Shown here one piece after another: positions 3,620 to 18,569 of a stretch of DNA of 64,000 nucleotides. The notes under the pieces are model-generated. The model had not been told where the DNA came from. It made no database searches and worked only from the letters and a program-made list of their open reading frames with translations. Numbering within the stretch: the first letter of the stretch is position 1; each line of letters begins with the position of its first letter. A program made the translations under genes and the position numbers. Source of the DNA: a virus. The stretch spans positions 1 through 64,000 of the IMG/VR virus record IMGVR_UViG_3300031957_002603, one strand, 5' to 3'.

Positions 3620-3640
3620 AAAAAAAGTTTGTTTTTTTTC

Positions 3641-3669: not shown

Positions 3670-3716
3670 ACTAACATCAAGGGGCAATGTCGCTCTCTTG
3701 GTTACTCGGAGGCCAA

Positions 3717-3926: not shown

Positions 3927-3935
3927 GGAGAGCAC

Positions 3936-4097: not shown

Positions 4098-4111
4098 TCG
4101 AGGTTTTACTT

Positions 4112-4282
4112 ATGTTTATTCAACTTGGCTTTGCAGCCCTTATCACCGTCCTTTCATGGGCAATCATCCTAGGAACCCTGAACATAGCGGGCGTATTCAT
4201 TGCCGCTCTGCTTGGAGCCTCTCCAAACGAGATCGAAAAGTTCGAACAAGCCTGTATTGATCGAGACAATAAAAAAAGTTAA
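4112..4282 (+). CDS. 56 aa membrane peptide
   Basis: RBS GAGG; MFIQLGFAALITVLSWAIILGTLNIAGVFIAALLG hydrophobic, charged tail. Confidence 0.65.
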   Translation: MFIQLGFAALITVLSWAIILGTLNIAGVFIAALLGASPNEIEKFEQACIDRDNKKS

Positions 4283-4291
4283 ACTTTTTTC

Positions 4292-4320
4292 TTGACAAAT
4301 CAAACCAACCGTGATACATT
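4292..4320 (+). promoter_or_regulatory. sigma70-type early promoter, copy 5
   Basis: TTGACA 4292-4297, N17, TACATT 4315-4320; near-palindrome AAAAAAGTTAAACTTTTTT upstream. Confidence 0.85.
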
Positions 4321-4366
4321 ACTAACATCAAGAGGCAATGACGCTTCTTGAATACTTGGAGGCCAC

Positions 4367-4666
4367 ATGGCTCAATCAAACAACTCAACCGCAATCCCTT
4401 TCGTATTCACTCTAGGCAAAGGCATATTATTCGACACGCTCAACCCGAACGGTGCTGACCCGCTATTCGCTGGTGTGCTCGAACAGCAACCGGATGAAAC
4501 CTTGCCCTATGGAACCAGTCGTCAACGGTTCAACCTTATTGCAGATAAGACCTTCAATGTCTCTGGCTTGCCGCCTAAAGCGATCTACTCATGTGTTGAG
4601 CGCATCGAGATTGCGCTTCAGCAACATCTTCAATCAGAACGAAAGCCACAAATAACCTTGGTCTAA
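4367..4666 (+). CDS. Hypothetical early protein
   Basis: ATG after GGAGG, own promoter. Confidence 0.75.
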   Translation: MAQSNNSTAIPFVFTLGKGILFDTLNPNGADPLFAGVLEQQPDETLPYGTSRQRFNLIADKTFNVSGLPPKAIYSCVERIEIALQQHLQSERKPQITLV

Positions 4667-4697
4667 CCAAGGTTATAAACTTTCTTCAACTTTCTGC

Positions 4698-4726
4698 TTG
4701 ACAAATCTTATCAACCGTGATACATT
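4698..4726 (+). promoter_or_regulatory. sigma70-type early promoter, copy 6
   Basis: TTGACA 4698-4703, N17, TACATT 4721-4726. Confidence 0.85.
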
Positions 4727-4748
4727 ATATACATCACAGGGAGACACA

Positions 4749-4910
4749 ATGAAAACAGTGACCATTACGAAACTTGTCCTTACAGGCTGCCTCAAAGGCA
4801 TGACCGTTCAAGACAGTTATCCAACCATCCGCAAAGATAGCCGCATTGTCGGCAATGTTTATCAAGGCTACACACACAAATACAAAGTACTATCAATCGA
4901 GTATAAATAG
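4749..4910 (+). CDS. Small hypothetical early protein (53 aa)
   Basis: ATG 4749 after AGGGAG, downstream of promoter. Confidence 0.7.
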   Translation: MKTVTITKLVLTGCLKGMTVQDSYPTIRKDSRIVGNVYQGYTHKYKVLSIEYK

Positions 4911-4918
4911 GAGACAGC

Positions 4919-5005
4919 ATGTTTATTGAAATGCTAGCATTCGCCTTGCTTACAGGCACAACCGCAACCCTTACCGCATTGGCCGCTCTGTCGGCCTTCC
5001 AATAG
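4919..5005 (+). CDS. 28 aa hydrophobic peptide (not in ORF track)
   Basis: RBS TAGGAG; MFIEMLAFALLTGTTATLTALAALSAFQ; fills the gap between neighbours. Confidence 0.55.
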   Translation: MFIEMLAFALLTGTTATLTALAALSAFQ

Positions 5006-5013
5006 GAGCCCAA

Positions 5014-5217
5014 ATGACCCGTGTATTCCAACTATTCACAGACCTGAAAGAAGCAAAGCAGTTCTGCTATAACCACGATATGAAGGACATCGAGCGTCTT
5101 GTGCTCGTCAAGTGTGGCGTCCACAAGGGCGATGTGTATTATGTCATGGACGGCATGTCCGAGATTGACCGGTACATAAACAACTGGAAGATGGAAACCC
5201 TCTATGTTTACGAGTAA
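5014..5217 (+). CDS. Small hypothetical protein
   Basis: RBS TAGGAG, ORF 67 aa. Confidence 0.7.
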   Translation: MTRVFQLFTDLKEAKQFCYNHDMKDIERLVLVKCGVHKGDVYYVMDGMSEIDRYINNWKMETLYVYE

Positions 5218-5251
5218 CCATCGAGGTCACAAAAAAACTTAAACTTTTTTC

Positions 5252-5280
5252 TTGACAAACTTAATCAACCATGATACATT
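5252..5280 (+). promoter_or_regulatory. sigma70-type early promoter, copy 7
   Basis: TTGACA 5252-5257, N17, TACATT 5275-5280. Confidence 0.85.
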
Positions 5281-5324
5281 ATAAACATCAAACAAACACA
5301 CTACACACAATCGAGGTAAACAAT

Positions 5325-5513
5325 ATGTTTCATCCATCAGAACTCAAAGCAATGAAAGCAGCAAAAGCAACCCGAACCAAGTTCACAATCGTAACAAAGG
5401 CAAAGATCGTCCTTCTTAACAATGCATATGGCGTCTCTTATCCTGACGGTCGCATTGACCGCTGTGTTAACCTTGCAACCGCTCAGTATCTTGTCCGCTC
5501 CTTCAACCGATAA
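5325..5513 (+). CDS. Small basic hypothetical protein
   Basis: ATG 5325 after GAGGT, downstream of promoter. Confidence 0.7.
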   Translation: MFHPSELKAMKAAKATRTKFTIVTKAKIVLLNNAYGVSYPDGRIDRCVNLATAQYLVRSFNR

Positions 5514-5565
5514 GCGACAAACCTCCGAGACCACAAATAAATAAAAACTGAACAAGGGAAATCAA

Positions 5566-5844
5566 ATGAGAAACGAACAAGTTATTAAAGCATTCACAAT
5601 GGAAAGAGAAGCAAAGGCAAGTAACCTATACACAGATGGAAAGCGCATCTATTCGTATGGCGTAACCATTGGCTTCAATATGGCTGGTAGAACATTCGTT
5701 ATTGACTACACTGCAACAGGTGGTCACTTTATCTCTGCTACAACCTCTCAGCATGTCTGTAAGATAAAGAGAGAAGCCGGTGTTAAGGTCATCTCAGCAG
5801 AGGAATACCAAGAGGGCTTTCACCATCTGGTACGGGATCTCTAA
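5566..5844 (+). CDS. Hypothetical phage protein
   Basis: ORF 92 aa with YSYG...SATTSQH pattern; RBS AAGGG. Confidence 0.7.
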   Translation: MRNEQVIKAFTMEREAKASNLYTDGKRIYSYGVTIGFNMAGRTFVIDYTATGGHFISATTSQHVCKIKREAGVKVISAEEYQEGFHHLVRDL

Positions 5845-6181
5845 GCCCCTATCCTCTACACTACTACCCCCCTAGTACCCTACCCCCGCTTGCGCTCACA
5901 GCACACAATATGCGTTATATGCGCATTATCCAAGGTGTGTGTAACACATGCCCCTTAAAGGTGAGTATGCTATGATAATCGCAAGGTTTTAGGGTTCTAT
6001 GGGGTCTGCGCTAGTGTCTGCTTGTCTTACTGTAATAGGCACATTCTGAGCCTGTCTAGCGCATGTATAGAGCACACATACATAACTAGCATAGTAACAC
6101 ACGAAACGCCCGATTGTAACGAAACTTTTCGAAACATTCCCGTACACACGAGCACATACGAAACACACGAGGTACACACAC

Positions 6182-6304
6182 ATGACATATAACGAGCGCA
6201 TGATCGCACACATGGAACGCAAGTTACGCATATTGCTCGCATGCGAGGAAGCACAAAACAAAGCAATGAAACATCGAAACAGGATAAACAACTATGATGT
6301 ATAG
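6182..6304 (+). CDS. 40 aa helical peptide (not in ORF track)
   Basis: RBS GAGGT; MTYNERMIAHMERKLRILLACEEAQNKAMKHRNRINNYDV. Confidence 0.4.
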   Translation: MTYNERMIAHMERKLRILLACEEAQNKAMKHRNRINNYDV

Positions 6305-6447
6305 CAGCCGGCTATCTCTCTTAGGGAGGGGGTCTAATAAAACCCCCATAAACACGGGATCTTTAGAAACGCTACGAACGCCACGAGGCCCCCCAAAAGC
6401 GGTCAAATTATGACCGGATTATGAAAGATTTCACGATAATTGGCTTA

Positions 6448-6612
6448 CAACCTACCTTATTTGGAAAAGTAAGCACAAAATGTGGGAAAACTGGACATAA
6501 ATAAGGGGTAGCCCTAGGGAGAGATAAACATTATTCAGCGAAAATGAACCTTCAACCTACCATATCGTAAAAGTTAAGCAAGTTAGGCAGCGAGACTTTA
6601 CATAAATAAGGG
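6448..6612. repeat. Degenerate direct repeat, two ~60 bp units 105 bp apart
   Basis: CAACCTACC at 6448 and 6553; AAAAGT(T)AAGCA; ACATAAATAAGGG at 6495 and 6600. Confidence 0.65.
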
Positions 6613-6727
6613 ACAAGGAAAAAAAGTTAAAAAAACTTTGCCTTCAATAACACAGGTACAACCTTGGCTTTTGGGCATAGGCTCAGGAGATCCAGTCAAA
6701 GAGGGCATAAAAAACTTGTCGATTTAT

Positions 6728-6756
6728 TTGACAACGGGATGGTAACGGGATACATT
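6728..6756 (+). promoter_or_regulatory. sigma70-type early promoter, copy 8
   Basis: TTGACA 6728-6733, N17, TACATT 6751-6756. Confidence 0.8.
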
Positions 6757-6900
6757 AATAGTATGAAAAGCGATGATGCATTTCACTTTCCCATGGAGGC
6801 TGTCTTTGACGCTCTTTGTTATCTTACTTTCAAACTGGGCTTTCGGGCTCTTCTTGCTATCCTTCATCTTCTTCCCATCCAAATAATCGAGGTTCAACCT

Positions 6901-7209
6901 ATGTCTTTCAAACTCAACATCAACATTCTTGCCGATACCGATAACACCAGCACAGGCCGTGAGACCTTCAACCCGCTTCTGCGTATCACTCCCAACCACA
7001 CAAACCGCCCTCTGCTAGAGGGATATATCGCCGCTATCCGAAAGGGCGAGTATTCATGGGCACGCTTGCGCATCCTCCAAAAGTCCCTTCCTCGCACTGC
7101 TGCTTCAGCCCGTGCCAAAGGGGATGTTTGGACAGCACACTGGGCAGATGCCGCACTGGCCTGTATCGAAGTGCATGGTCACAAGGTGCAACGCAAGTCG
7201 GACAAATAA
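6901..7209 (+). CDS. Hypothetical early protein (102 aa)
   Basis: ATG 6901 after GAGGT, in frame with track ORF 6664-7209. Confidence 0.7.
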   Translation: MSFKLNINILADTDNTSTGRETFNPLLRITPNHTNRPLLEGYIAAIRKGEYSWARLRILQKSLPRTAASARAKGDVWTAHWADAALACIEVHGHKVQRKSDK

Positions 7210-7244
7210 TGTCCGAGAATAAATAAAATAATTCAACATTTTAC

Positions 7245-7273
7245 TTGACAACCGTATCAGAATATGATACATT
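7245..7273 (+). promoter_or_regulatory. sigma70-type early promoter, copy 9
   Basis: TTGACA 7245-7250, N17, TACATT 7268-7273. Confidence 0.85.
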
Positions 7274-7329
7274 ATATATATCAACGGAGCACAACGCTCC
7301 ACCCTTTAACCCTCATTGGAGTATCCAAT

Positions 7330-7938
7330 ATGCCTAACACTACTACCTCACGCCAACTCGCTCGCATCCGTGCACAATATGACGCTCAACAAGCAGCCCT
7401 TAACGCTCGTCGTTATGAAGGTTTGAAGCACCTTATCGAGAGCCCTATCGCTCATTTCTCAGGCGTCCGTCAAGATGTCCTCGTTCAGTTGCGTGCTAAC
7501 CGTGATGCGTTCACCGCTCAAGATGCTGGCCTCAACATGCCCGTGACCACCGTGTCTAACTCACAGTTCTTCTTCCCTCGCAATGCCCCACAGGTTGGCT
7601 CTCTCGTAGAGCATGAACTGTTCGGTCTCGGCATGGTCGAAGGTAAGCCGTTCGCTGCTGCTAACGCTGGTATGGCTCTCGCTGTATTCTTCGACGAGGT
7701 CGACCGCACCGCTATCGTCTTTGCTGATGAACTTGAAATGCTCGATGGTGACTTGGTTGGCGACAGTGCCGACCATGACAGCACCGTTGCTTCAAAGGCT
7801 GCCAAGGCCCGTATCGACGAGGGTCGTGCTCAAGCCGCTGCGCCTAAGTATGATACCGATGTAACCGAGGACGAGGAAGATGCCGACGATGCAGCGTTCG
7901 CCGAGTTCCTTGCAAGCGGCGAGTTCGATGTAGACTAG
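7330..7938 (+). CDS. Protein with PcrA/UvrD C-terminal Tudor-like domain and acidic tail
   Basis: VGSLVEHELFGLGMVEG...LAVFF matches G--V-H--FG-G-V...V-F; tail EDEEDADDAAFAEFLASGEFDVD; ATG 7330 after GGAG. Confidence 0.6.
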   Translation: MPNTTTSRQLARIRAQYDAQQAALNARRYEGLKHLIESPIAHFSGVRQDVLVQLRANRDAFTAQDAGLNMPVTTVSNSQFFFPRNAPQVGSLVEHELFGLGMVEGKPFAAANAGMALAVFFDEVDRTAIVFADELEMLDGDLVGDSADHDSTVASKAAKARIDEGRAQAAAPKYDTDVTEDEEDADDAAFAEFLASGEFDVD

Positions 7939-7964
7939 GTCTACACCCCTTCCCCTTTCATTCA

Positions 7965-7993
7965 GCGGCTGCCTTCGGGTGGCCGTTTGTTTT
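7965..7993 (+). terminator. Rho-independent terminator closing the early region
   Basis: GCGGCTGCC-TTCG-GGTGGCCGT stem with cUUCGg loop followed by TTGTTTT. Confidence 0.8.
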
Positions 7994-8224
7994 ATGCGCT
8001 GTTTGATTTGGCTGTTTGCGTTTGGCTGTTTGGCTGTGGGGGGTGGTCCCCCTCCCCCGGTCCCCCTACTACTCAGGCTAATAGACCGTCGAAATAAGTA
8101 CTTAGAAAGTGCGTTTTCGGCAGGCGGGCCTAATACATTCGCTACACCCCCAGAAAATTTGGGAAATATGACCCTTGTCGTAACACAAAGAGTAACGTTA
8201 CACTATTGTTACGCTAATTATTAT

Positions 8225-8725
8225 ATGAGGCGCACACGATTACTACTTGCTTTTCTGTTGTTTTTAATGGCTTTTGCCCTAAGACCAGCGAATGCAAATA
8301 AAAATAATGAACATTTTGCATGGCGTAAGCCGCCGACGGTTGTTGTGTGCTACCAAGACTTTCCAAATCATTTGTTATATAGAGCAATTGAATTTTGGGA
8401 AATAAGAGGACAGAAAATTGAAGGTATTATTCTTGATGTTCCTAGCGGCATATGTAATGTTGCTCATATTCCGGATACAATCATAATCAGAAGAGCCCCA
8501 AGGGGCAAACTAAATATGGGTCAACTCGCAGTAACCGAAAGGCGTGCCGACACAGAATATAATATGATCAGCAGCGTAATTTGGTTTGATCATCAGCGTT
8601 TAAATGAGCCATGGATTATCGAACATGAAGTTGGCCATGGACTTGGCTTTGCTCATGTAAATAAAAAAAATCATATTATGAATCCGTGGGCACCAAGTAT
8701 GGGTCCAGAATTTTGGATACCCTAA
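8225..8725 (+). CDS. Secreted matrixin-like (M10) zinc metallopeptidase
   Basis: Signal peptide MRRTRLLLAFLLFLMAFALRPANA; HEVGHGLGFAH and IMNP Met-turn. Confidence 0.8.
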   Translation: MRRTRLLLAFLLFLMAFALRPANANKNNEHFAWRKPPTVVVCYQDFPNHLLYRAIEFWEIRGQKIEGIILDVPSGICNVAHIPDTIIIRRAPRGKLNMGQLAVTERRADTEYNMISSVIWFDHQRLNEPWIIEHEVGHGLGFAHVNKKNHIMNPWAPSMGPEFWIP

Positions 8726-8788
8726 AAAATTGCCCAGAAAAATTTTCAGATTTAACCTATTTATGGCTCAACGAAAAAGGAGTAAACT

Positions 8789-9193
8789 ATGTATAATTTT
8801 TTGTATTATAACCAAAAGACTTCCCCTAGGGTTCCTTGGTTCTTTGAGAACTCAAAGGTTCCCGTAATCTTATCGTATTTGGCGCCAATTGACATCTATG
8901 CAATTGCCTTCGGACCTTGGGTCTGGTGTCGTGGCGTGATGGATGAAGAAACGCGCAATCACGAGACGATTCATTATCATCAGCAACTTGAACTCCTGTT
9001 CATCGGGCAATGGATTTTGTATGTGTTTTACTGGCTAAAAGGACTAATTATCTATAGAGACGGCGAGATTGCCTACCGGCAATCGCCCTTTGAGCGGGAA
9101 GCATACGATAACGATCAAAATCTTGATTATTTGAAAACTCGCAAGCCCTACGCATGGAGACATTATCGTGAAGTTGACAACAACCACACTTAA
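8789..9193 (+). CDS. Small zincin-like protein (DUF4157-like)
   Basis: HETIHYHQ...PFEREAY; RBS AAGGAG. Confidence 0.7.
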   Translation: MYNFLYYNQKTSPRVPWFFENSKVPVILSYLAPIDIYAIAFGPWVWCRGVMDEETRNHETIHYHQQLELLFIGQWILYVFYWLKGLIIYRDGEIAYRQSPFEREAYDNDQNLDYLKTRKPYAWRHYREVDNNHT

Positions 9194-9635
9194 GCAAATC
9201 ATTAAAGAGGAATTGGCCAAAGTCATGGCCGAGTATAGAACTCTTCCTCAATTTCCCGAAGGCTTTCCGGAAGACTTTCAAGCAAAGATTCATAGCCTTA
9301 TAAATTCTGGTGACGAACAAAACATTGAAATGGCGCGTTCCTTGATGGATTCATTTGGTGAAGCAGATTATGTCGACAGTTATATTGACTATCAAGAGGT
9401 CGGCACGTCCGAAAAGTTTGGCAATAGAGCCAGAGATTTGAATAAGTCAGTAAGTTTTGATGATGAAATGCTAGCAAAGATTAAATATATAAGAAAGAAA
9501 AGAGATTTAGACGCCGAAGTTAAAGAAAAACTTAAAGCAATTGCTGCTCGAACCGGCGAAAATTATGAAGATTTGTATGATCGCTATCTTGACAATCAAT
9601 TTCATAACGTATCGAATAATTTTTCGGAAGAATAA
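9168..9635 (+). CDS. Putative virion-internal protein with IIKEE leader
   Basis: MKLTTTTLKQIIKEELAKVMAE. Confidence 0.7.
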   Translation: MKLTTTTLKQIIKEELAKVMAEYRTLPQFPEGFPEDFQAKIHSLINSGDEQNIEMARSLMDSFGEADYVDSYIDYQEVGTSEKFGNRARDLNKSVSFDDEMLAKIKYIRKKRDLDAEVKEKLKAIAARTGENYEDLYDRYLDNQFHNVSNNFSEE

Positions 9636-10606
9636 TGAAATTATCAACCAATCAACTTAGCCGCATTGTACAAGAAGAAATAGACAAATTTTTGGCGGAA
9701 ATGTCTAAAGAAGAGGAAAAATTTTTTGGTGATGAAATCAAGGCGCTGGTGGATAATCCCGACGAACTGTATTATGTCAAGAATGTTAAACCTCGCAACC
9801 CTTATGTTGATCTCGAAGAGAAACAGTTCCTAAACCGTCGATGGATTGAAGAGAATGTCGGAAAGTATCTGGGAGGTGGCTCGTTCCGTGATGCTTATCA
9901 AATTAAGTCGCATCCCGACAAGATTCTAAAAATCTCAAATCGTTATCTTCAGCATGACCCGCTGGATGGGCAAGAGTATACAACCATTGCTGAAGAAACT
10001 AACATGCTCGAGATTGAAATGTTCAACAAGTATCCGGGTTACTTTCCCAAGGTTTATATCTCTGACAAAGAAAAGCAGGGAATTCCTCGATGGCTTGTTA
10101 TTGAAAAGGTCGAGGTTATTGAATATCAATCTGAATTTATTCGGCAACTTGTTCGCTCATTTAAATCAATTCCAAAATCTTATAATCTTATGAATAACCT
10201 TATCGCCGAGTATTTGCCAAGTACCTCGGCAGACTTTCCTCCTGCTTCTGGGACTGGTCGTGAAATTGATGCTGAGCAATGGGCATATACTTCATGGATT
10301 GCTGTTGGGTATAATGAGCCTGAGAGATTGAAAGACATTCTAAAAGACCTTCCAGTATGGGATGAGAAATATGGCGACGTCCTCAAACGAGATGTTGATC
10401 AGGTTATTGATGAGGAAATTCTTTTGGATGAAGCAGTCAAGCAAGTTTGGAAAGTTTTGACCTCCGACCAATATCTTGTTAAGTTTTGGGACATGGTGAA
10501 TACTCTCAACATTGAATATAACGAACTTCGTGAGGGAAATGTTGGAACAGATATCGAAACTCGCACCAAGTTCCTAATTATTGATATATCGATATTTGAT
10601 GATTAA
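9635..10606 (+). CDS. Protein-kinase-like fold protein with IVQEE leader
   Basis: G-loop LGGGSFRDAY, KILKI, alphaC-like Glu, ELREGN catalytic-loop-like, IIDIS. Confidence 0.65.
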   Translation: MKLSTNQLSRIVQEEIDKFLAEMSKEEEKFFGDEIKALVDNPDELYYVKNVKPRNPYVDLEEKQFLNRRWIEENVGKYLGGGSFRDAYQIKSHPDKILKISNRYLQHDPLDGQEYTTIAEETNMLEIEMFNKYPGYFPKVYISDKEKQGIPRWLVIEKVEVIEYQSEFIRQLVRSFKSIPKSYNLMNNLIAEYLPSTSADFPPASGTGREIDAEQWAYTSWIAVGYNEPERLKDILKDLPVWDEKYGDVLKRDVDQVIDEEILLDEAVKQVWKVLTSDQYLVKFWDMVNTLNIEYNELREGNVGTDIETRTKFLIIDISIFDD

Positions 10607-10608
10607 CC

Positions 10609-12204
10609 ATGATTAAAGTAAAAATAAAAAAATCTCTTGCGGAAGGCGGAAATGTATTCGCTGGTAAAACTGCTTCTATTCCTCTTGAGTTTATCCAACC
10701 AACGCTTGACAGATATTATGAAGAACTTGATCGTTTGTTCCCACAACACTCGGACAAGTTTAGGAACTTTCAGCCGCTTGGGTCCGTTGGCAAGAAAGCA
10801 AAATCTGGTGACATTGATCTTGCCGTCAATGTTCGTGAAATGTTCCCAGACGGCGAAGTGAACCCAGAGGACCTTGAATCTTGGGGACTTTCTCCAGACA
10901 AGTGGAATGAAAAACTTGAAAAATTAATTAAAAGAGCAAGAACCTCGACCAAAGGAGAACTTGGGTGGAAGGCTTTCTTGCAATTGCTCGCAGAATATAT
11001 AAATGAGAACTCTGACCTTATTGAGGCAGATCTTAAAAAGATTAAGCCCGGTGCAATGTTTTCTTTGTTCCCTCAATTCAACCCCGAAGGTGAACAGCAA
11101 GATGTCGGTGTCCAGATTGACTGGATGGTTGGCAATGTTGATTGGCTTACCTTTTCTTATTTCTCTGATGCTCCATCAGAAGATGAGCCACTTCTCAAAG
11201 GACTTCATCGTACACAATTGATTCATGCTCTTATATTAGCAATGGACCATTCATTCTCTCATACAGCGGGCGTGAAGAATAAAAAGACAGGCGAAACAGT
11301 TGCTTTCTCAAAAGATGAAATTCTTGACCTTTTGTCTCGCCTATATCGTAACACCATAACAATTGATGATACGCAAAACTTCAACACGCTATATGACTGG
11401 ATGAGTAACATCGATGAGGCGGACCGTAACAAAGCGTTACGCGCTTACCTTAAGATTCTCGACACAACCCGAGGCAATAAAGACCTCGATGGTGAACGCT
11501 GTGGATATATACCCAGAGCGCTTGAGGAAATGTACCTCTCTTTGTTGAAAAATGGACAAATGAGCGGAAGATTTTTATGCAAAGAGGCTAACCCTACCCT
11601 ATGGGCTGCTAAGAATGGTTCTCTCCAAGAATCGCCAAATAACAATGAAAAAATTACCGTTGTGATACCCGGTGGTTTTAAACCTCCACATCGAGGTCAT
11701 GTTGAGATGATTAACCACTTTGCGAATCTCCCCAATGTTGATGAGGTTATTGTCTTCACTGGCTCAAAAGAAAGAGAATCAACCGATGGTTCTATCGTTG
11801 TAACTGCTGAGAAAGCAAGAAAATTATTTAATTTGTTTGACCTCGCTTCGAATGTTAGATTTGGCGTTGTTGCTCAGAGACCAAAGAAAGACGGAAGCAC
11901 ATATGAGAATCCATTCATGGATGCTGTTGGTGTTCTGTTTGATGAAAAGTATGCTGGAAAGAATGTTGCGATTGGTCACCCAACAAAAGATCCAACATAT
12001 GGCGATCGATTTGCTAAAATTGCATCCTATTCGAAGAAGCCGATGGCGGCGAATCTTGTCAAGGTAACACCGGCGGATACAACAGATGGCTTGTCTGCTA
12101 CAGATCTTCGCAATGCTGTACAAAGTGGCGATACAGACGAACTAAAAAGGTTCATCCCAGATGCAATTGCGAAAGATTATTTAAATATTTTATTAAAAAA
12201 ATAA
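10609..12204 (+). CDS. Pol-beta-superfamily nucleotidyltransferase fused to HIGH-class (cytidylyl/NMN adenylyl) transferase
   Basis: GSVGKKAKSGDIDL + VQID; PGGFKPPHRGH and LSATDLR. Confidence 0.8.
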   Translation: MIKVKIKKSLAEGGNVFAGKTASIPLEFIQPTLDRYYEELDRLFPQHSDKFRNFQPLGSVGKKAKSGDIDLAVNVREMFPDGEVNPEDLESWGLSPDKWNEKLEKLIKRARTSTKGELGWKAFLQLLAEYINENSDLIEADLKKIKPGAMFSLFPQFNPEGEQQDVGVQIDWMVGNVDWLTFSYFSDAPSEDEPLLKGLHRTQLIHALILAMDHSFSHTAGVKNKKTGETVAFSKDEILDLLSRLYRNTITIDDTQNFNTLYDWMSNIDEADRNKALRAYLKILDTTRGNKDLDGERCGYIPRALEEMYLSLLKNGQMSGRFLCKEANPTLWAAKNGSLQESPNNNEKITVVIPGGFKPPHRGHVEMINHFANLPNVDEVIVFTGSKERESTDGSIVVTAEKARKLFNLFDLASNVRFGVVAQRPKKDGSTYENPFMDAVGVLFDEKYAGKNVAIGHPTKDPTYGDRFAKIASYSKKPMAANLVKVTPADTTDGLSATDLRNAVQSGDTDELKRFIPDAIAKDYLNILLKK

Positions 12205-12213
12205 CTTTTTTTC

Positions 12214-12242
12214 TTGACAAACGGCATAAAACATGTTATATT
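12214..12242 (+). promoter_or_regulatory. sigma70-type promoter with extended -10
   Basis: TTGACA 12214-12219, N17, TGT-TATATT ending 12242. Confidence 0.85.
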
Positions 12243-12248
12243 ATATAT

Positions 12249-12346
12249 ATAATATGATTTGGTGTTGCGATCTCCTTAATCGCTGTGTTTGTTTGTGTTG
12301 ACCTCCTTGCCCTCCTGCGATCTAGTTATTGCAGGAGGGTTTTTTT
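12249..12346 (+). ncRNA. Candidate small RNA with anti-Shine-Dalgarno motifs
   Basis: Lies between a consensus promoter and a terminator; hairpin GCGAT-CTCCTTA-ATCGC; second motif GACCTCCTTG. Confidence 0.6.
12310..12346 (+). terminator. Rho-independent terminator whose 3' arm carries the RBS of the next gene
   Basis: CCCTCCTGCGAT/ATTGCAGGAGGG stem followed by a T-run. Confidence 0.8.
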
Positions 12347-13318
12347 ATGTTATTCTTTATCCTGTTCTTTTTATCTTGTCTTAGCGACAATTATATCGTT
12401 CACGAAGTTGAGAAAATTAAATACGAAACGATCACGGAAACTGAAGTTGTTTATGTCGAGGACACGGCTCCTCCACCGCAAGATACATCGTTAGATTTAT
12501 TGCCAATCTGGGTTGATTCGTTCACACAACCGAACTCGATGAATGGAATTGACATTCTTTGGGTCATTGATCGTTCTGGTTCAATGCATGATGAGGCACC
12601 TCAGATCCTAACTGGGATTGAAACAATGATAGCAGCACTCCCAGCCTCCGACTGGCGGCTTGTAATGATTAATATTAGTTCAAATGTATCTGCAATTAGT
12701 CAAGTATTTCCACTTATACCGGGTGACGGGCTCACAGAGGCTTGGAATATGTATAATGGTTTGGGTAATTCTTTTAAAGAAGAAGGTTTTAATGCTGTTT
12801 TTTCATATATGGCTGATAATTCCTATTCACAAACTTGGATGAGAGAAGATGCATCTTTATTAATTGTTTTTGTCTCCGATGAAGACGAGCAAAGTACTAA
12901 TAGATACCCAACGACAACAACATTTATCAACTGGATCAGCATGCAGAGGTCAGATTACCATATAACCTCGATTGTTCACTATGAAGTTCCGCTGTCACAA
13001 TGCAATAATAATACAACTGCGGTTGGTGATCGCTATCTCGAGGCGGTTGATTTGACCGGTGGAACTAAAATAGACATTTGTACAGACGATTGGACGGCAG
13101 GAATCAGTGAAGCACTTAATCAAGTTGAGCCATATGAGTACTATGATCTATCAAAGCGAGTTAAATACCCTCAATACTTACAAGTTTTCTACGATGGGAG
13201 ACCTGCACACCCCGACGAATGGCGCTACGATGCAGCAAATAATCGTGTTTACTTTGGACCTTTGCCAGATGGTGGTGTTTTGGTTGAGATTGCCTACTAT
13301 TATCAACCAACTCACTAA
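12347..13318 (+). CDS. VWA-domain lipoprotein
   Basis: MLFFILFFLSC lipobox-like; DILWVIDRSGSM MIDAS; VSDEDEQS. Confidence 0.8.
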   Translation: MLFFILFFLSCLSDNYIVHEVEKIKYETITETEVVYVEDTAPPPQDTSLDLLPIWVDSFTQPNSMNGIDILWVIDRSGSMHDEAPQILTGIETMIAALPASDWRLVMINISSNVSAISQVFPLIPGDGLTEAWNMYNGLGNSFKEEGFNAVFSYMADNSYSQTWMREDASLLIVFVSDEDEQSTNRYPTTTTFINWISMQRSDYHITSIVHYEVPLSQCNNNTTAVGDRYLEAVDLTGGTKIDICTDDWTAGISEALNQVEPYEYYDLSKRVKYPQYLQVFYDGRPAHPDEWRYDAANNRVYFGPLPDGGVLVEIAYYYQPTH

Positions 13319-13335
13319 TTATTGGGGAGAAAATC

Positions 13336-13641
13336 ATGGCAAAAAAAATAAAAGTTCGCATTCTCAAACAAATTGACGAAAAAAAGAAAGATTGTTTTAA
13401 AAATAAGACTTTTGATAGCAAAGTAAAATGTATTATAAAACAAAAAAACCTTTCAAAAGAAAAATCTAGTGCTTATGTTGCCTCTGTTTTAAGAGATAAA
13501 GGCGAGTTAGATGAAGAGTGGTCTAAGTCTGAAAGAAATAAAAGAAAATCAAAATGTGATAACCCAAAAGGGTTCACAATGAAGCAATTTTGCAAAAACC
13601 AGCGTACTAAGTCCAAAAAAAATGAAAAGAAAAATGAATAA
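13336..13641 (+). CDS. Small basic two-module protein (putative virion-internal)
   Basis: KIKVRILKQIDE leader; LDEEWS...CDNPKGFTMKQFC module. Confidence 0.65.
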   Translation: MAKKIKVRILKQIDEKKKDCFKNKTFDSKVKCIIKQKNLSKEKSSAYVASVLRDKGELDEEWSKSERNKRKSKCDNPKGFTMKQFCKNQRTKSKKNEKKNE

Positions 13642-13672
13642 TATTGTCTAAAATCGTTACAAAGGAACTAAA

Positions 13673-15403
13673 ATGATTAAAATTCGCATACTCAATGAAA
13701 ATATTGTTACAGAACAGCAAGAAAAAATCACTCTTGATGAAGCAATAGACTTTTATGACAATAATATCAACACATTTGTCGCCATGGCTAATGGTGAACA
13801 GCAAAAAGACCCACAATTGTGGAAGAAATTCGAAAGAATAGCATCAGATTGTTATAATACTCTACAAAAAGGCTATGATGAGATCAAGAAATGGTCAAAT
13901 AATCAAGATCCTCGAGCCATTTCCTATGTAGAAAGGTTAGGTTCATTTTTTAAGAAATTTACATCGTTCTTGAAAGGCGAAGAAGTCAAAAATTCTGAAC
14001 TTGTAAGCGTACCAATTATGCAAAAAAGTTCTTTTATTATTCCAAAAAACGGTGATGGTCTATCAGACGAAGAATTGAAAAAAGTTTTTTATGTACTTGA
14101 GAGTTATACAAAGTGGTATGAGAATCTCAAAGGCAAATTAGGCTCTTGGTCTCAAAGAAATCTCCCAACCATGAGAAAAATGATGGGATTACGAGAAGGG
14201 TTCATTACAGAACAAGAGAAAATCACGCTCAGTCAGATCGTTGGAGAGAATTCAGTCATATCTTTTGACTTTGACAACACATTAGTGAAGTCATATCCTG
14301 ATTTTGACGACGATGGTGAACTAATTTACATCAATGGGGGCTCAAATGCAACCATGATTAACCTTATGAAGCATTTAATTGATGATCCAAGCAAAAAAGT
14401 TTACCTTGTGACCTCAAGAAATGAAGAAATGGAGCAAAAAACACCTGAACAATCAATAAAAGCACAACTTGATAGGCTCGGAGTGCAGCCAGATGGTATA
14501 TATTTCACTAATTCTCAGCCAAAAGTCACAAAATTGAAGGAATTAGGGGTCGAAATACACTTTGATGACGACAGAATGGAGCACGGAGATATTCAAGGCA
14601 GTGGAATTCAATCATTTTACCCTGATGATTTCCTCGAAGACACCAATCAGGTGTCAAAAGTAGTCGCTGTGACGCTTGATAACAAGGTATTGGTATTAAA
14701 AAGAGCAGATACAGGCGAAATTGACATACCGGGTGGTCATGGAAAGAGCGGAGAGACACCTGAATTTACTGCAATTAGAGAAACTTTAGAAGAAACTGGT
14801 CTTGATTTGTTCGGAATTAAAGAAATTATGTCTAAAGAAGTTAATTTTAAAGGTAGAAATGAACAAATTACTTATTTTTATGCTAAATTGAACAACACTT
14901 CAGAGATGCTAATGGACGATGTCGACCTAGATACCCATGAGAACACAGAATTTTACTTCGTTCAGCCTCAAAATATTGATGAATACATGTCAAATGCGAC
15001 AAATAATTTAAAAAATGTCTCAAATGAGATTAAATCATTGACAATTGATGAACATACAGAACCTTTTCAACGAAAAATGGCCGCAAAACACCGAAAATAC
15101 ATGAACCAAATGTTTAAAAGTGGCGGTTTTAAGAAAAAAATGGGTCCATATAACCAAAATCCGCCAATGGGACGCTCAAAATCGGCTCCACCGGGTTTTG
15201 GAGCAATTGGTGAGGCAAAAAAACAAGAAAAAACGTCTATTAAAGTCAAAATTAACCAAAATCTAGACGAAAAACGCAAAAAGAAGCGAAAAAAGCGCAA
15301 AAAACGCAAAAAAACAGCAAAATATGGCGGTTATTACCCCTATTTTGACCTTTATGACGGCTCCGGAGGCGATGCAGGTGGAGATGGAGGCGGCGGTGAG
15401 TGA
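13673..15403 (+). CDS. Multidomain protein: HAD-like phosphatase + Nudix hydrolase + basic tail
   Basis: SFDFDNTL, VTSR, HFDDD; Nudix box PGGHGKSGETPEFTAIRETLEETGL. Confidence 0.85.
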   Translation: MIKIRILNENIVTEQQEKITLDEAIDFYDNNINTFVAMANGEQQKDPQLWKKFERIASDCYNTLQKGYDEIKKWSNNQDPRAISYVERLGSFFKKFTSFLKGEEVKNSELVSVPIMQKSSFIIPKNGDGLSDEELKKVFYVLESYTKWYENLKGKLGSWSQRNLPTMRKMMGLREGFITEQEKITLSQIVGENSVISFDFDNTLVKSYPDFDDDGELIYINGGSNATMINLMKHLIDDPSKKVYLVTSRNEEMEQKTPEQSIKAQLDRLGVQPDGIYFTNSQPKVTKLKELGVEIHFDDDRMEHGDIQGSGIQSFYPDDFLEDTNQVSKVVAVTLDNKVLVLKRADTGEIDIPGGHGKSGETPEFTAIRETLEETGLDLFGIKEIMSKEVNFKGRNEQITYFYAKLNNTSEMLMDDVDLDTHENTEFYFVQPQNIDEYMSNATNNLKNVSNEIKSLTIDEHTEPFQRKMAAKHRKYMNQMFKSGGFKKKMGPYNQNPPMGRSKSAPPGFGAIGEAKKQEKTSIKVKINQNLDEKRKKKRKKRKKRKKTAKYGGYYPYFDLYDGSGGDAGGDGGGGE

Positions 15404-16734: not shown

Positions 16735-17541
16735 ATGCCTTGTAAGATTATTAATAACTCTGGTCTCGAAATATCAGGCTTTGAAGATATGATTCAATCC
16801 CTTGTTTCATTCTCACAAGATCGTTTTGGTTTTGAAAAGCCGCCATCTTTATTTCTCAATTCAGATTCCGATAATGCTACAAACCTTTTGGGCAAAACTG
16901 CTTATTATGATCCTGAAAATCAAGAGGTTCATGTTTATACAACTGATCGTCATCCAAAAGATATTATGCGATCAATTTCTCATGAACTTGTTCACCATAA
17001 TCAGAACTGCCAAGGGAATCTTGGAGGAGAACATTATTCAGGCGAAGGTTATGCTCAAAAAGACCCTCACATGAGAAAAATGGAACAAGAAGCATATTTA
17101 CAAGGGAATATGTGTTTTCGTGACTGGGAAGACGGTTACAAACAAAAACAACAAGTTTACAATGAATGGAGAACTAAAACAATGTCTTTAAATGAATGGA
17201 AAAACAAAGAACTATTTGATCTTTTGTCTCAAAAATGGGGATTTTCTAAAAATGTAATTACCGAAGCCAAAGGTGAAAAAGGTGATGCTGATCCTCTTGA
17301 TGGAGAAAGAGCAAAATTTGACAAAGACCATGACGGTGTACCCGATGGTGCTGATAAGGATAAAGATGATCCTGAAATTCAAGAAGATCTTAACGAAGGC
17401 GAAGAACAACTTGACGAAGAAGAGATCGAAGAGATTGCTGCCAAAAGATTTGGTAATGAAGACCGCGACGTTGGTCGCAATAGAATGCACGCTGATAGAA
17501 TGCACGAAGTTGTAAAAAGATTTAAAAAACTTATAAAATAA
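16735..17541 (+). CDS. Zincin-like peptidase domain plus acidic Ca-binding-like segment
   Basis: HELVHHNQ...MEQEAY; DKDHDGVPDGADKDKDDP. Confidence 0.7.
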   Translation: MPCKIINNSGLEISGFEDMIQSLVSFSQDRFGFEKPPSLFLNSDSDNATNLLGKTAYYDPENQEVHVYTTDRHPKDIMRSISHELVHHNQNCQGNLGGEHYSGEGYAQKDPHMRKMEQEAYLQGNMCFRDWEDGYKQKQQVYNEWRTKTMSLNEWKNKELFDLLSQKWGFSKNVITEAKGEKGDADPLDGERAKFDKDHDGVPDGADKDKDDPEIQEDLNEGEEQLDEEEIEEIAAKRFGNEDRDVGRNRMHADRMHEVVKRFKKLIK

Positions 17542-18467
17542 TGAGTAAAATTATTGAAATTAAAACATTAAAACAATTGTTCGAACTTTCTACAATGGCA
17601 GGAGGTTCGGTCGGAGGCTACTCAACACCCGAGGACGACAAGATGAAAAGAGAAGATATCGTAACAGAACAAAAGTTACGCAGTTACATTCGTAACAAAA
17701 TTAATGAGTCCTATAAAAGACAAAGGACCCAACAACTTAACGAAGAAGCAAAACTTCGACAAATTATTAGATCCATTCTTAAAGAGTCTGATATCTCTGA
17801 TATTCATCCTCATCGTTCAACTGGTATTAATGTTCTTGAAGATCTCCTCAAGAAAATGATTCCAACTCTTCGCACTGATTATAAGCGTTTGACTACATCA
17901 AAAGAACAGCGTGACTCTTTTCGTGCTCACATCGTTAATGCAATTAAAAAATCTTTATTGCCCTCGCTTGTTAACGACAAGTATGTTCAAGGTGATAATG
18001 TTGATCCCGGCATGCTTATGGCGGAGCCCGGTGGTGATGCTGAGGTTGATATCCCACCAGATCCAGAACTAGACGCTGAGGTTGATGATGAACTTGATGC
18101 AGAATTAGAGGATGAACTTCTTGAAGTAGACATCGATATTGATATCGAATCAGACCCAGACCCTGACAAGAAAGTTGATGCAGGTCTTGGTGACGAAGAG
18201 CCTAACGAAGAAGAAGAGTTTGGTTCAGGTATCGAAAATCAAGGTTTTGATGAGACCGGTAGAAACATGGCCTTTACCTGTTTCAAAAAAGTTCAGCAAT
18301 ATATTTTAGATTCATATGACCTCCTGCGTGATCCAAAGGATAAAAAAGTGTTTGTTGATTACTTGATAACAAATACCAAGTTGTATCTGGATAAGTTTGA
18401 AGACGAACTTCAGAATACAGTCGAAGAACCAACTACTCCAGAATACGAAAATACTAAGGGTGTATAA
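17541..18467 (+). CDS. Acidic putative virion-internal/scaffold-like protein
   Basis: EQKLRSYIR...INES, EAKLRQIIRSILKES motifs; long D/E-rich segment. Confidence 0.7.
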   Translation: MSKIIEIKTLKQLFELSTMAGGSVGGYSTPEDDKMKREDIVTEQKLRSYIRNKINESYKRQRTQQLNEEAKLRQIIRSILKESDISDIHPHRSTGINVLEDLLKKMIPTLRTDYKRLTTSKEQRDSFRAHIVNAIKKSLLPSLVNDKYVQGDNVDPGMLMAEPGGDAEVDIPPDPELDAEVDDELDAELEDELLEVDIDIDIESDPDPDKKVDAGLGDEEPNEEEEFGSGIENQGFDETGRNMAFTCFKKVQQYILDSYDLLRDPKDKKVFVDYLITNTKLYLDKFEDELQNTVEEPTTPEYENTKGV

Positions 18468-18468
18468 T

Positions 18469-18497
18469 AATATAACATATTATGAATACATTGTCAA
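18469..18497 (-). promoter_or_regulatory. sigma70-type promoter on the minus strand
   Basis: Reverse complement reads TTGACA-N17-TATATT with TG extension. Confidence 0.6.
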
Positions 18498-18569
18498 GTA
18501 AATAATATTAATATTAATAAGATTATATTATTATAATATATTATATATAAGATTAATAAGATATATAAA

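What the first reader, a model, noticed from the sequence alone, without database searches (positions are those of the whole stretch)
12214..12346. Candidate phage small RNA displaying anti-Shine-Dalgarno sequences
Seen: a consensus sigma70 promoter and an intrinsic terminator enclose ~98 nt. It has the hairpin GCGAU-CUCCUUA-AUCGC (12267-12283), whose loop equals the typical 16S rRNA 3' end, a second copy GACCUCCUUG (12300-12309), and a GU-rich linker. The linker UGUGUUUGUUUG is a perfect 12-nt complement of the early leader CAAACAAACACA (5289-5300), and UUGUGUUG complements CAACACAA (1687-1694). Inference: a trans-acting RNA that occludes ribosome-binding sites of early phage and/or host mRNAs.
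Basis: partly seen in the sequence, partly recalled or inferred. Interest (0 to 1): 0.82.

Follow-up and report, generated by a model that had tools for sequence, protein, structure and literature searches.

The report
Conserved phage small-RNA unit sharing a terminator

Summary
A near-consensus sigma70-type promoter and a strong intrinsic terminator enclose about 98 nt containing three CUCCU motifs and a GU-rich linker.

New evidence:
- 15 of 17 related metagenome loci and one viral contig carry the unit.
- Across 12 distinct sequences the -35 and -10 hexamers never vary, while 9 of 17 spacer positions do.
- Positions 12258-12317 never vary, while 88 of 110 third-codon positions of the adjacent gene do.
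- The terminator stem shows compensatory changes.

The terminator's 3' arm is the Shine-Dalgarno sequence of the downstream VWA lipoprotein gene. Its loop holds the phage's candidate late-promoter motif. This matches the phage T4 lysozyme gene (gene e) design, and the hairpin recurs in relatives with only 41-46% VWA identity.

The proposed targets are not supported. The 12-nt complement is at chance level genome-wide and absent from the held part of a relative with an identical RNA. Pairing to phage ribosome-binding sites is no better than for shuffled controls.

No expression data could be obtained. Another first-stage note on this genome (e1-6162109) had already flagged the hairpin. Verdict: a likely functional small RNA of unknown target, fused to a known kind of late-gene switch.

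The parts
10609..12204 (+). Upstream 531-aa gene. It has a weak cytidylyltransferase-like match, and its transcripts have no terminator before 12309-12340.
   Evidence: Only 9 nt separate its stop codon from the -35 hexamer. In 6 of the 15 relatives that carry the unit, a different upstream ORF or only a 6-codon frame sits here.
12205..12213 (+). T-tract just upstream of the -35 hexamer. It is shared with the other promoters of the family, and the conserved block begins here.
   Evidence: 3 of 9 positions vary.
12214..12242 (+). Sigma70-type promoter: TTGACA, 17-nt spacer, TG-extended TATATT.
   Evidence: 11 of 12 consensus positions. It belongs to a phage-wide promoter family. The -35 and -10 hexamers vary at 0 of 12 positions; the spacer varies at 9 of 17, among 12 distinct sequences.
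12249..12346 (+). Predicted non-coding RNA of about 96-98 nt. The 5' end is inferred from promoter geometry and the 3' end from the U-tract.
   Evidence: Positions 12258-12317 are invariant in all 12 distinct sequences. Single copy in the genome. No Rfam family matches.
12267..12283 (+). Hairpin 1: 5-bp stem with loop CUCCUUA, the first anti-Shine-Dalgarno-like motif.
   Evidence: The loop is predicted unpaired. The stem never varies, so there is no covariation evidence.
12284..12300 (+). GU-rich linker.
   Evidence: Partly single-stranded in the ensemble. Invariant.
12301..12308 (+). Second anti-Shine-Dalgarno-like motif, ACCUCCUU, predicted single-stranded.
12309..12340 (+). Intrinsic terminator hairpin (13 bp) that also masks the ribosome-binding site. 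The 5' arm holds the third CCUCCU.
   Evidence: All 125 alignment cells are paired, 2 pairs changed on both sides and 2 on one side. A look-alike shorter hairpin occurs in distant relatives.
12322..12328 (+). CTAGTTA in the hairpin loop, a variant of the candidate late-promoter motif CTA[AT]TTA. It reads CTATTTA in the L017 group.
   Evidence: A gp55-like late sigma factor is encoded at 53786-54502.
12333..12339 (+). AGGAGGG, the Shine-Dalgarno sequence of the VWA gene, forming the 3' arm of the terminator.
   Evidence: The probability that GGAGG is unpaired is 0.0 in long transcripts and 0.21-0.28 if the transcript starts at 12333 or 12334.
12347..13318 (+). Gene for a putative lipoprotein with a von Willebrand factor A (VWA) domain. 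Its N-terminus is MLFFILFFLSC.
   Evidence: VWA E = 1.8e-4, below Pfam's cut-off. The family has 205 relatives in viral contigs.

Best explanation
This is a composite regulatory module with two layers.

Layer 1, well supported. The hairpin at 12309-12340 ends all rightward transcription arriving from upstream. In any read-through transcript it locks the ribosome-binding site AGGAGGG of the VWA lipoprotein gene against CCCUCCU. The phage's late-promoter-like motif sits in the hairpin loop. Late transcripts would therefore start at about 12333-12334, lack the 5' arm, and be translatable. This is how phage T4 restricts its lysozyme gene (gene e) and I-TevI to late times.

Layer 2, inferred. In this clade a strong host-type promoter was placed about 60 nt in front of that hairpin, and the hairpin was lengthened into a full terminator. 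The pair now produces a discrete non-coding RNA of about 97 nt.

Every base of the RNA body is under purifying selection, so the RNA itself is the likely product. I think it most likely acts in trans as a base-pairing regulator. It would use its exposed CU-rich motifs (loop CUCCUUA and ACCUCCUU) and the GU-rich linker, which together are antisense to the 'CA-rich enhancer plus Shine-Dalgarno' layout of translation-initiation regions. Its targets, phage or host, are unknown.

Sub-probabilities:
- Layer 1: about 0.8.
- A discrete functional RNA: about 0.55.
- Occlusion of ribosome-binding sites as its mechanism: about 0.3.
For: Promoter:
- It matches 11 of 12 consensus positions and has a TG extension.
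- It belongs to a family of about 20 similar + strand promoters. All the others lead within about 15-60 nt to a ribosome-binding site and start codon.
- The -35 and -10 hexamers are invariant while 9 of 17 spacer positions vary. This is the pattern expected of a working promoter.

Terminator:
- 13-bp stem plus U7, -22.4 kcal/mol.
- 125 of 125 cells paired, with C-G to U-A and G.U to U-A or A-U exchanges.

RNA body:
- Between the window and relative G001, the longest identical run in 12.8 kb of aligned sequence is 92 nt, at 12227-12318. The neighbourhood averages 66% identity.
- 15 of 17 metagenome loci carry the unit at 92-96.5% identity. Of the other two, L019 has no upstream DNA and L026 is a distant relative.
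- 0 of 60 positions vary at 12258-12317. In the next gene 16 of 110 second-codon and 88 of 110 third-codon positions vary.
- The unit stays attached to the VWA gene when the upstream gene differs.
- No conserved ORF.

Cis layer:
- GGAGG is 0% unpaired in long transcripts.
- CTA[AT]TTA occurs 40 times on the + strand, and 17 of these lie in the 3.3% of the genome that is 8-40 nt upstream of predicted starts (P = 2e-15). With the G variant, the motif occurs 45 times on the + strand and 10 on the - strand.
- Four genes have the motif, 4 nt, then ATG. This places the transcription start 5-6 nt after the motif.
- The L017 group has the canonical ACTATTTA in the loop.
- A late sigma factor is encoded.
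- Hairpins that mask the ribosome-binding site occur in 8 of 64 distinct distant loci against 14 of 1280 shuffles. L047 and L059 have hairpins that look like a shorter version of this one.
- The T4 precedent is described in PMC3014915, passages of section 29.

The distant loci lack both the sigma70 promoter and the motif cluster, and their hairpins have shorter stems and U-tracts. The promoter and the stronger terminator therefore appear together in this clade.
Against: - No transcript evidence. The two RNA runs held only contigs and gave no cover over 12250-12640.
- Hairpin 1 never varies, so its structure is untested. The body alone does not fold better than shuffles.
- Target predictions fail controls. 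The 12-nt complement is at chance level and absent from the held part of G001.
- Mean cofold energy change (ddG) to 129 phage TIRs is -7.7, against -8.5 +/- 1.3 kcal/mol for 51 shuffles. The best target is the TIR at 23848, at -24.9 kcal/mol with P = 0.08.
- Complete invariance over 60 nt is more than a typical seed-driven small RNA needs. It may point to a protein-binding or DNA-level role instead.
- Only 7 distinct RNA variants exist, all from one shallow clade. A recent spread of the cassette by recombination cannot be fully excluded.
- The window's own loop motif is the rarer G variant, with T rather than A before it.
Confidence: 0.45

Rival explanations
1. The conserved RNA is a cis-acting leader, not a free small RNA. 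On this reading the body (small hairpin, CU-rich and GU-rich tracts) loads host or phage factors onto RNA polymerase, as lambda nut or HK022 put sites and rrn leaders do. Alternatively it is otherwise regulated. Either way, polymerase starting at 12214 would pass the terminator at a chosen time and express the genes from 12347 to about 15403. The short RNA would be only the default product, like lambda 6S RNA from pR'.
For: - The promoter is the only member of its family followed by a terminator before any gene.
- The next strong + strand terminator is at about 15416.
- A -10-like TATAAT sits at 12248-12253, at the start of the transcript. Lambdoid late promoters use such elements for pausing (recalled, not from any call).
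- The CUCCUUAAU loop loosely resembles the boxA motif, and GU-rich tracts resemble boxC (recalled from memory, a lead only).
- Full-length invariance fits a platform that binds several proteins.
Against: - No antiterminator protein was identified, and none was searched for.
- There is no sequence able to form an alternative to the terminator that is also conserved. The only candidate, AUCGC with GCGAU at the stem top, is lost in the L017 group.
- There is no SD-like anti-anti-SD in the leader.
- Read-through RNA would still mask the VWA ribosome-binding site.
- The VWA gene and the next gene each have their own late-type motif, at 12322 and 13315.
- The hairpin was strengthened, not weakened, in the clade that gained the promoter.
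Confidence: 0.2
2. The conservation is at DNA level, or reflects cassette spread, and the RNA has no function of its own. On this reading the promoter-plus-stem-loop block is a mobile regulatory cassette of the promoter-early stem-loop (PeSL) type. It would be kept uniform by recombination between co-infecting phages. Alternatively it is a protein-binding or R-loop replication element.
For: - The conserved block starts exactly at the promoter's T-tract, where the upstream gene is swapped in 6 of the 15 loci that carry the unit.
- Insertions and deletions between the window and G001 in the early region are bounded by copies of the promoter.
- Contigs in run X17 join this promoter to other leaders.
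- PeSLs are conserved promoter-plus-terminator composites that mediate such shuffling in T4-type phages (PMC2839356 and PMC4122927, abstracts and passages).
Against: - The transcribed body and terminator are single-copy. In described PeSLs the stem-loop lies upstream of, within, or just after the promoter, before the transcription start (PMC2839356, passage of section 14). Here it lies 60 nt inside the transcript.
- The block's edges coincide with functional edges in every lineage. The terminator loop and the first codons of the VWA gene carry lineage-specific changes while the body does not. That fits selection better than a recent sweep.
- Compensatory stem changes show RNA-level selection on the hairpin.
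- The cumulative GC-skew minimum lies at 6-8 kb, not here.
Confidence: 0.15
3. The RNA is a decoy or mimic of the 3' tail of 16S rRNA rather than an antisense regulator of particular mRNAs. It would titrate Shine-Dalgarno sequences in bulk, or titrate a factor that binds or cuts the anti-Shine-Dalgarno tail.
For: - Two exposed copies (GAUCUCCUUA and GACCUCCUU) contain the CCUCC/CUCCU core of the anti-Shine-Dalgarno region. The core motif is taken from the abstracts of PMC6288834 and PMC6107199 as listed.
- The cluster is statistically unusual.
- Several late genes appear leaderless or start right at their Shine-Dalgarno sequence, so they might escape a bulk block.
Against: - Purely inferential, and the host is unknown.
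- The first copy lacks the full CCUCC.
- Most phage genes, late ones included, have Shine-Dalgarno-like sequences in my crude gene call (118 of 141, and the start choice was biased towards them).
- It does not explain the invariant GU linker.
Confidence: 0.1

Closest known systems
Hairpins that mask the ribosome-binding site of phage T4 gene e (lysozyme) and I-TevI, with late promoters placed so that late transcripts lack the 5' arm
   Same: - The Shine-Dalgarno sequence of the gene is paired in transcripts coming from upstream.
- A late-promoter motif lies inside the structure.
- A gp55-like late sigma factor is encoded.
- The phage is a distant T4-type myovirus (PMC3014915, passages of section 29).
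   Different: - The late motif is CTA[AT]TTA, not TATAAATA.
- The hairpin is also a full intrinsic terminator.
- It is used as the 3' end of an upstream promoter-driven short RNA.
- The gene is a VWA lipoprotein, not a lysis or homing gene.
- Late 5' ends have not been mapped.
Small RNAs with their own promoter that share the terminator of the preceding mRNA, and GU-rich seeds such as that of GcvB, which silence CA-rich translation enhancers
   Same: - Own promoter directly after the stop codon of the upstream gene, with one shared terminator and a U7 tail.
- A GU-rich single-stranded stretch opposite CA-rich leaders.
- GcvB pairs just upstream of the Shine-Dalgarno motif, and translation-enhancing ACA motifs are involved (PMC3879156, title and start of abstract from the listing).
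- The 3'-UTR small-RNA class and DapZ are recalled from memory.
   Different: - No sequence or structure homology. The Rfam scan of this stretch at E up to 10 listed 10 weak matches, all far below their gathering scores, and GcvB was not among them.
- Hfq dependence and targets are unknown.
- No target enrichment over shuffles.
C-rich small RNAs of Firmicutes (RsaE/RoxS) that pair with Shine-Dalgarno sequences
   Same: Exposed C/U-rich motifs in a loop and a linker, complementary to G-rich ribosome-binding sites. The RNA is about 100 nt with a terminal hairpin. The comparison rests on the search listing and abstract starts, plus recall.
   Different: - RsaE was not among the Rfam matches at E up to 10.
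- The motif here is CUCCUU, not the UCCC type (recalled).
- It is encoded by a phage.
PeSL promoter-early stem-loop cassettes of T4-type phages
   Same: A near-consensus sigma70 promoter with an AT-rich upstream tract and a nearby terminator stem-loop. It sits at the boundary of gene swaps between related phages (PMC2839356, PMC4122927).
   Different: - PeSLs are multi-copy, and their stem-loop lies before the transcription start (PMC2839356, passage of section 14).
- Here a single-copy, invariant 60-nt transcribed body separates promoter and stem-loop.
Known phage-encoded small RNAs (mostly from temperate phages and prophages)
   Same: A promoter-to-terminator non-coding unit in a phage genome with a presumed post-transcriptional role. 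The review PMC12197685 (passages) describes c4 RNA blocking the ant ribosome-binding site from loop sequences.
   Different: - No homology to any of them was found (Rfam).
- The host phage is an uncultured, apparently lytic marine myovirus.
- Supplementary Table S1 of that review, which lists 38 small RNAs without function, could not be seen.

Membership tests
Independent small-RNA gene (own promoter, intrinsic terminator, non-coding) | Functional promoter directly upstream | tested here: met
   11 of 12 consensus positions with a TG extension. The hexamers are invariant and the spacer is variable across 12 distinct sequences. Activity was not measured.
Independent small-RNA gene (own promoter, intrinsic terminator, non-coding) | Rho-independent terminator that defines the 3' end | tested here: met
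   13-bp stem plus U7. Compensatory changes with no broken pair in 125 cells.
Independent small-RNA gene (own promoter, intrinsic terminator, non-coding) | No conserved reading frame | tested here: met
   The only ATG-led ORF (15 codons from 12254) loses its ATG in L022, L023 and L024.
Independent small-RNA gene (own promoter, intrinsic terminator, non-coding) | A discrete transcript of the predicted size | not testable with these tools
   Only assembled contigs of two RNA runs were available, and none covered 12250-12640.
Trans-acting base-pairing regulator | Target complementarity beyond chance and conserved with the small RNA | tested here: not met
   - A 12-nt match arises in 59% of shuffles.
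- The site is absent from the held part of G001.
- Cofold energies to 129 TIRs are no better than for 51 shuffles; the best hit has P = 0.08.
- Host targets could not be tested because the host is unknown.
T4 gene e-type late switch (masked ribosome-binding site plus internal late promoter) | The Shine-Dalgarno sequence is paired in upstream-initiated transcripts | tested here: met
   Probability that GGAGG is unpaired is 0.0 for 5' ends at 12100, 12249 or 12300. The stem is conserved with covariation.
T4 gene e-type late switch (masked ribosome-binding site plus internal late promoter) | A late promoter placed so that late RNA lacks the 5' arm | tested here: inconclusive
   The motif is in the loop: CTAGTTA here and canonical CTATTTA in the L017 group. 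The motif is strongly enriched upstream of genes, and a late sigma factor is present. No promoter or 5' end has been mapped experimentally.
PeSL cassette | A repeated composite with the stem-loop at or before the promoter | tested here: not met
   The body and hairpin are single-copy. The stem-loop starts 60 nt after the predicted transcription start. The definition is from PMC2839356, passage of section 14.
Any Rfam family (including GcvB and RsaE) | Covariance-model score at or above the gathering threshold | tested here: not met
   The only gathering-level hit in the window is a tRNA. The best local matches score 9-24 bits against thresholds of 39-100 and are driven by the terminator.
Leader-peptide attenuator | A conserved leader ORF and a conserved alternative antiterminator helix | tested here: not met
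   The ATG is lost in 3 of 7 RNA variants. The only alternative pairing is lost in the L017 group.
nut/boxA- or put-type processive antitermination site | BoxA/boxB-like elements, a cognate factor, and read-through of downstream terminators | not tested
   The resemblance is recalled from memory only. No model or factor search was run.

The most novel reading that the evidence does not exclude
The RNA is a phage-made mimic of the anti-Shine-Dalgarno tail of 16S rRNA. Made in bulk from a consensus promoter, it would coat Shine-Dalgarno sequences, and via the GU tract the CA-rich enhancers, of host and early or middle phage mRNAs. Alternatively it would soak up a factor that acts on the 16S tail. 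Either way, translation would shift towards the phage's late mRNAs, several of which appear leaderless or begin right at their ribosome-binding site. That would be an RNA counterpart of the T4 RegA and RegB proteins.
Probability: 0.1. Interest if true: 0.9.

Novelty: new variant of a known kind. Interest (0 to 1): 0.55.

Why it matters
Small RNAs of lytic and uncultured marine phages are almost unexplored. Here sequence comparison alone picks out a candidate whose 60-nt body is more constrained than the second codon positions of the gene beside it.

One hairpin appears to serve three roles:
- terminator for upstream transcription and for the small RNA;
- translational mask of the next gene;
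- housing for a late-promoter motif.

This shows how tightly phage regulatory signals can be layered. It also extends the T4 gene e design to a very distant, widespread group of environmental myoviruses.

If the RNA does act on ribosome-binding sites, it would be an RNA-based route to the early-to-late translation switch that T4 achieves with proteins.

Tried and rejected
- Leader peptide. The Cys-rich 15-codon ORF from 12254 is rejected because its ATG is not conserved.
- Riboswitch or thermometer. No Rfam match, no conserved alternative helix, and a -22 kcal/mol stem.
- Paralogues. blastn-short against the genome found none. Covariance model R1 run over 430 kb of held sequence found only the window copy; the other matches have E = 0.34 or worse.
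- Host or bacterial homologues. One pattern scan of the species genome collection gave 3 hits. All look like chance reverse complements of ribosome-binding-site regions. This narrow pattern cannot exclude diverged homologues.
- CRISPR-repeat mimic. No array-like hits in that same scan, which is only weak evidence.
- Expression. The 20 runs holding the stretch are nearly all DNA. The two RNA runs (small word shares) were laid as contigs and gave no cover of the RNA, so nothing can be said in either direction.
- RNA.duplexfold energies gave long, unrealistic duplexes. I do not rely on them except for the longest-match count.
- Conservation of the best predicted target (TIR at 23848) could not be checked, because the relatives' records are not held.
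- Host identity was not resolved:
  - The nearest cultured capsid relatives are Flavobacterium phages at 48% identity.
  - However, the phage's TTGACA promoters and frequent Shine-Dalgarno sequences argue, from recalled knowledge of Bacteroidota, against such a host.
- The cultured-phage collection has no DNA match to 11000-14000 and no VWA relative.
- The first viral-contig scan with the single VWA protein found no relative.
- Supplementary tables of the papers were not available.
Full report
**What is in the sequence.** The window is the first 64 kb of a 131,465-bp virus record.
- The upstream 531-aa gene stops at 12204. Nine bases later comes TTGACA (12214), then a 17-nt spacer, then a TG-extended TATATT ending at 12242.
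- The predicted transcript starts near 12249. It contains a 5-bp hairpin with loop CUCCUUA (12267-12283), a GU-rich linker, and ACCUCCUU (12301).
- It ends in a 13-bp hairpin (12309-12340) followed by seven U and, directly after, ATG at 12347.

**Genome context.**
- The promoter belongs to a family of about 20 promoters on the + strand that share CTTGACAA and a TG-extended -10. In every other member a ribosome-binding site and start codon follow within about 15-60 nt.
- In my own scan the terminator is one of only two + strand hairpins below -20 kcal/mol that are followed by a T-run.
- The phage is a distant T4-type myovirus. It has a tail sheath, a T4-type major head protein and a gp55-like late sigma factor. 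Its nearest cultured capsid relatives are Flavobacterium phages at 48% identity.
- It occurs in seawater metagenomes: 18 runs hold at least half of the sampled words, and the 20 holding runs come from 9 studies, three of them possible sources of the record itself.

- The 3' arm of the terminator is AGGAGGG, spaced correctly for the ATG of the next gene. That gene encodes a putative lipoprotein with a weak VWA-domain match.
- In any transcript starting upstream, GGAGG is fully paired, with an unpaired probability of 0.0. If the RNA starts at 12333-12334 the probability rises to 0.21-0.28.
- The loop reads CTAGTTA. Following another first-stage note (e1-6162105), I tested the motif CTA[AT]TTA.
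  - With the G variant it occurs 45 times on the + strand and 10 on the - strand.
  - 17 of the 40 + strand copies of CTA[AT]TTA lie in the 3.3% of the genome that is 8-40 nt upstream of predicted starts (P = 2e-15). An A usually precedes the motif.
  - The motif follows the two clearest terminators of the late region.
  - At four genes it stands exactly 4 nt before the ATG. This places the transcription start 5-6 nt after it.
- For the VWA gene that start would be the first bases of AGGAGGG.
- This matches the design described for T4 gene e and I-TevI. [quoted passage not shown]
- Another first-stage note (e1-6162109) reached the same reading of the hairpin.

**Comparative evidence.**
- One viral contig (G001) is syntenic with window 120-12756.
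  - In a global alignment the longest identical run is 92 nt, at 12227-12318.
  - The 142-nt intergenic block is 96.5% identical, against a mean of 66% for 4901-12200.
- A metagenome scan with the N-terminus of the VWA protein gave 17 loci.
  - 15 carry the block at 92-96.5% identity.
  - L019 has no upstream DNA. L026 is a 43%-identity relative.
- Among 12 distinct sequences:
  - The -35 and -10 hexamers never vary, while 9 of 17 spacer positions do.
  - Positions 12258-12317 never vary.
  - The first 330 nt of the VWA gene vary at 142 positions: 16 of 110 second-codon and 88 of 110 third-codon positions.
- The terminator stem carries C-G to U-A, G.U to U-A and G.U to A-U exchanges plus two wobble changes. 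All 125 cells are paired. Only 1 of 500 shuffles reaches the observed covariation score, and no slid register comes close.
- Hairpin 1 never varies, so nothing can be said about its structure.
- The loop is always CTAGTTA or CTATTTA. The latter, preceded by A, is the canonical late motif.
- The ATG at 12254 is lost in three loci, so there is no leader peptide.
- In six loci the upstream gene is different or absent, yet the block is intact and begins at the promoter's T-tract.

**Deeper relatives.**
- The VWA lipoprotein family is large in viral contigs. 205 relatives were found and 80 fetched, at 40-49% identity. No relative exists among 50,697 cultured-phage records.
- Many fetched loci show TAGTTA-like motifs just before the start codon.
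- 8 of 64 distinct loci have a hairpin of at least 5 bp whose 3' arm is the Shine-Dalgarno sequence, against 14 of 1280 shuffled controls.
- L059 and L047 have GCCCTCCTA-GTTACTA-TAGGGGGGT-type hairpins that look like a shorter version of the window's. L026 has CCCTCCTTTT...AAAAGGAGGG before its start codon.
- None of the 66 distinct distant loci has a near-consensus sigma70 promoter together with a cluster of CU motifs. A covariance model of the RNA finds nothing convincing in 430 kb of held sequence.
- So the masking hairpin appears to be old. The promoter, the 60-nt body and the lengthened stem with U7 are seen only in this clade.

**Does it act on ribosome-binding sites?**
- The CU cluster is unusual. 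There are three CTCCT in 98 nt against 0.047 expected, and only one other such cluster in the genome. One copy, however, is explained by the cis hairpin.
- The loop and the second copy are predicted unpaired, and the GU linker partly so.
- The phage's sigma70-driven leaders are often CA-rich before the Shine-Dalgarno sequence. The order 'CU motif then GU tract' is antisense to that layout.
- The statistics do not support specific targets:
  - A 12-nt complement arises in 59% of shuffles genome-wide. It reaches P = 0.021 only when restricted, after the fact, to 18 leaders.
  - The site at 5289 is missing from the syntenic part of G001, whose RNA body is identical.
  - Cofold energy gains over 129 phage TIRs average -7.7 kcal/mol, against -8.5 +/- 1.3 for 51 shuffled bodies.
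  - The best hit is the TIR at 23848, behind the perfect-consensus promoter at 23778, at -24.9 kcal/mol and P = 0.08.
- GU-rich composition alone pairs promiscuously with such regions. Host targets could not be examined.

**Weighing the readings.**
- Several facts point to a discrete RNA as the product: a consensus promoter whose hexamers are conserved, an efficient-looking and covarying terminator 60 nt downstream, a non-coding body more constrained than second codon positions, separate late-type motifs for the two following genes, and the joint appearance of promoter and stronger terminator in one clade. I put this at about 0.55.
- Its mechanism is open. Base-pairing through the CU and GU tracts is the most economical idea (about 0.3 overall). 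It has precedents in GcvB-type GU seeds acting near ACA-type enhancers (PMC3879156, title and abstract start). It also has precedents in C-rich small RNAs that pair with Shine-Dalgarno sequences (listing, otherwise recalled).
- Rivals:
  - A cis-acting antitermination or attenuation leader (0.2).
  - A DNA-level or recombination-cassette explanation related to PeSLs (0.15). The architecture differs from the published definition.
  - A bulk 16S-tail mimic (0.1).
- Expression could not be tested.

**Novelty and score.** Phage small RNAs and T4-type masked ribosome-binding sites are both known kinds. New here are their fusion into one hairpin, the extreme conservation of the RNA body, and the setting in an uncultured marine far-T4 lineage. 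I rate it a new variant of a known kind, with interest 0.55.

Noticed in passing
window 18469-18497, minus strand: A near-consensus promoter of the same family (TTGACA, 17-nt spacer, TATATT with TG) points backwards into the 3' end of the + strand gene at 17541-18467, in a genome whose genes almost all run on the + strand. This is a possible antisense RNA. A 33-nt match to 18467-18499 exists in relative G001.
   Followed up: partly
whole genome, e.g. window 8757, 13315, 26828; genome 115238, 126045: CTA[AT]TTA, usually preceded by A, is strongly enriched 8-40 nt upstream of starts (17 of 40 copies, P = 2e-15). At 8214, 16724, 25865 and 54510 the motif (CTAGTTA at 25865) stands 4 nt before the ATG, which suggests leaderless late mRNAs read by the gp55-like sigma factor at 53786-54502.
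   Followed up: partly
window 5245-5335 against G001: Between the promoter at 5252 and its gene, the relative carries two extra promoter-plus-small-gene cassettes. Insertions and deletions in the early region are bounded by copies of the early promoter, which looks like PeSL-type modular shuffling.
   Followed up: partly
window 12347-13318 and loci L035-L114: The VWA lipoprotein family is common in environmental viral contigs, including contigs of 185-205 kb (205 relatives). It has no relative in 50,697 cultured-phage records.
   Followed up: partly
L043:787-867: A second GCCCUCCUA...UAGGAGGGU hairpin followed by U6 lies upstream of a different gene in a distant relative. Hairpins that mask the ribosome-binding site may be a recurrent device in this phage group.
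   Followed up: no
genome 123070-123180 (outside the window): The only other cluster of CTCCT in the genome (4 copies within 98 nt) lies here.
   Followed up: no
window 23778-23850: A perfect-consensus promoter (TTGACA, 17-nt spacer, TATAAT) precedes a short gene starting at 23848. That gene's leader (ACAAACAAAUAUAGGAGA) is the best predicted partner of the RNA (-24.9 kcal/mol, P = 0.08 against shuffles).
   Followed up: partly
window 12207-12246, run X17: Metagenome contigs match this promoter and then continue into other leaders. One of them is a CA-rich leader almost identical to the one at 5289. The promoter is therefore shared among cassettes in related phages.
   Followed up: no
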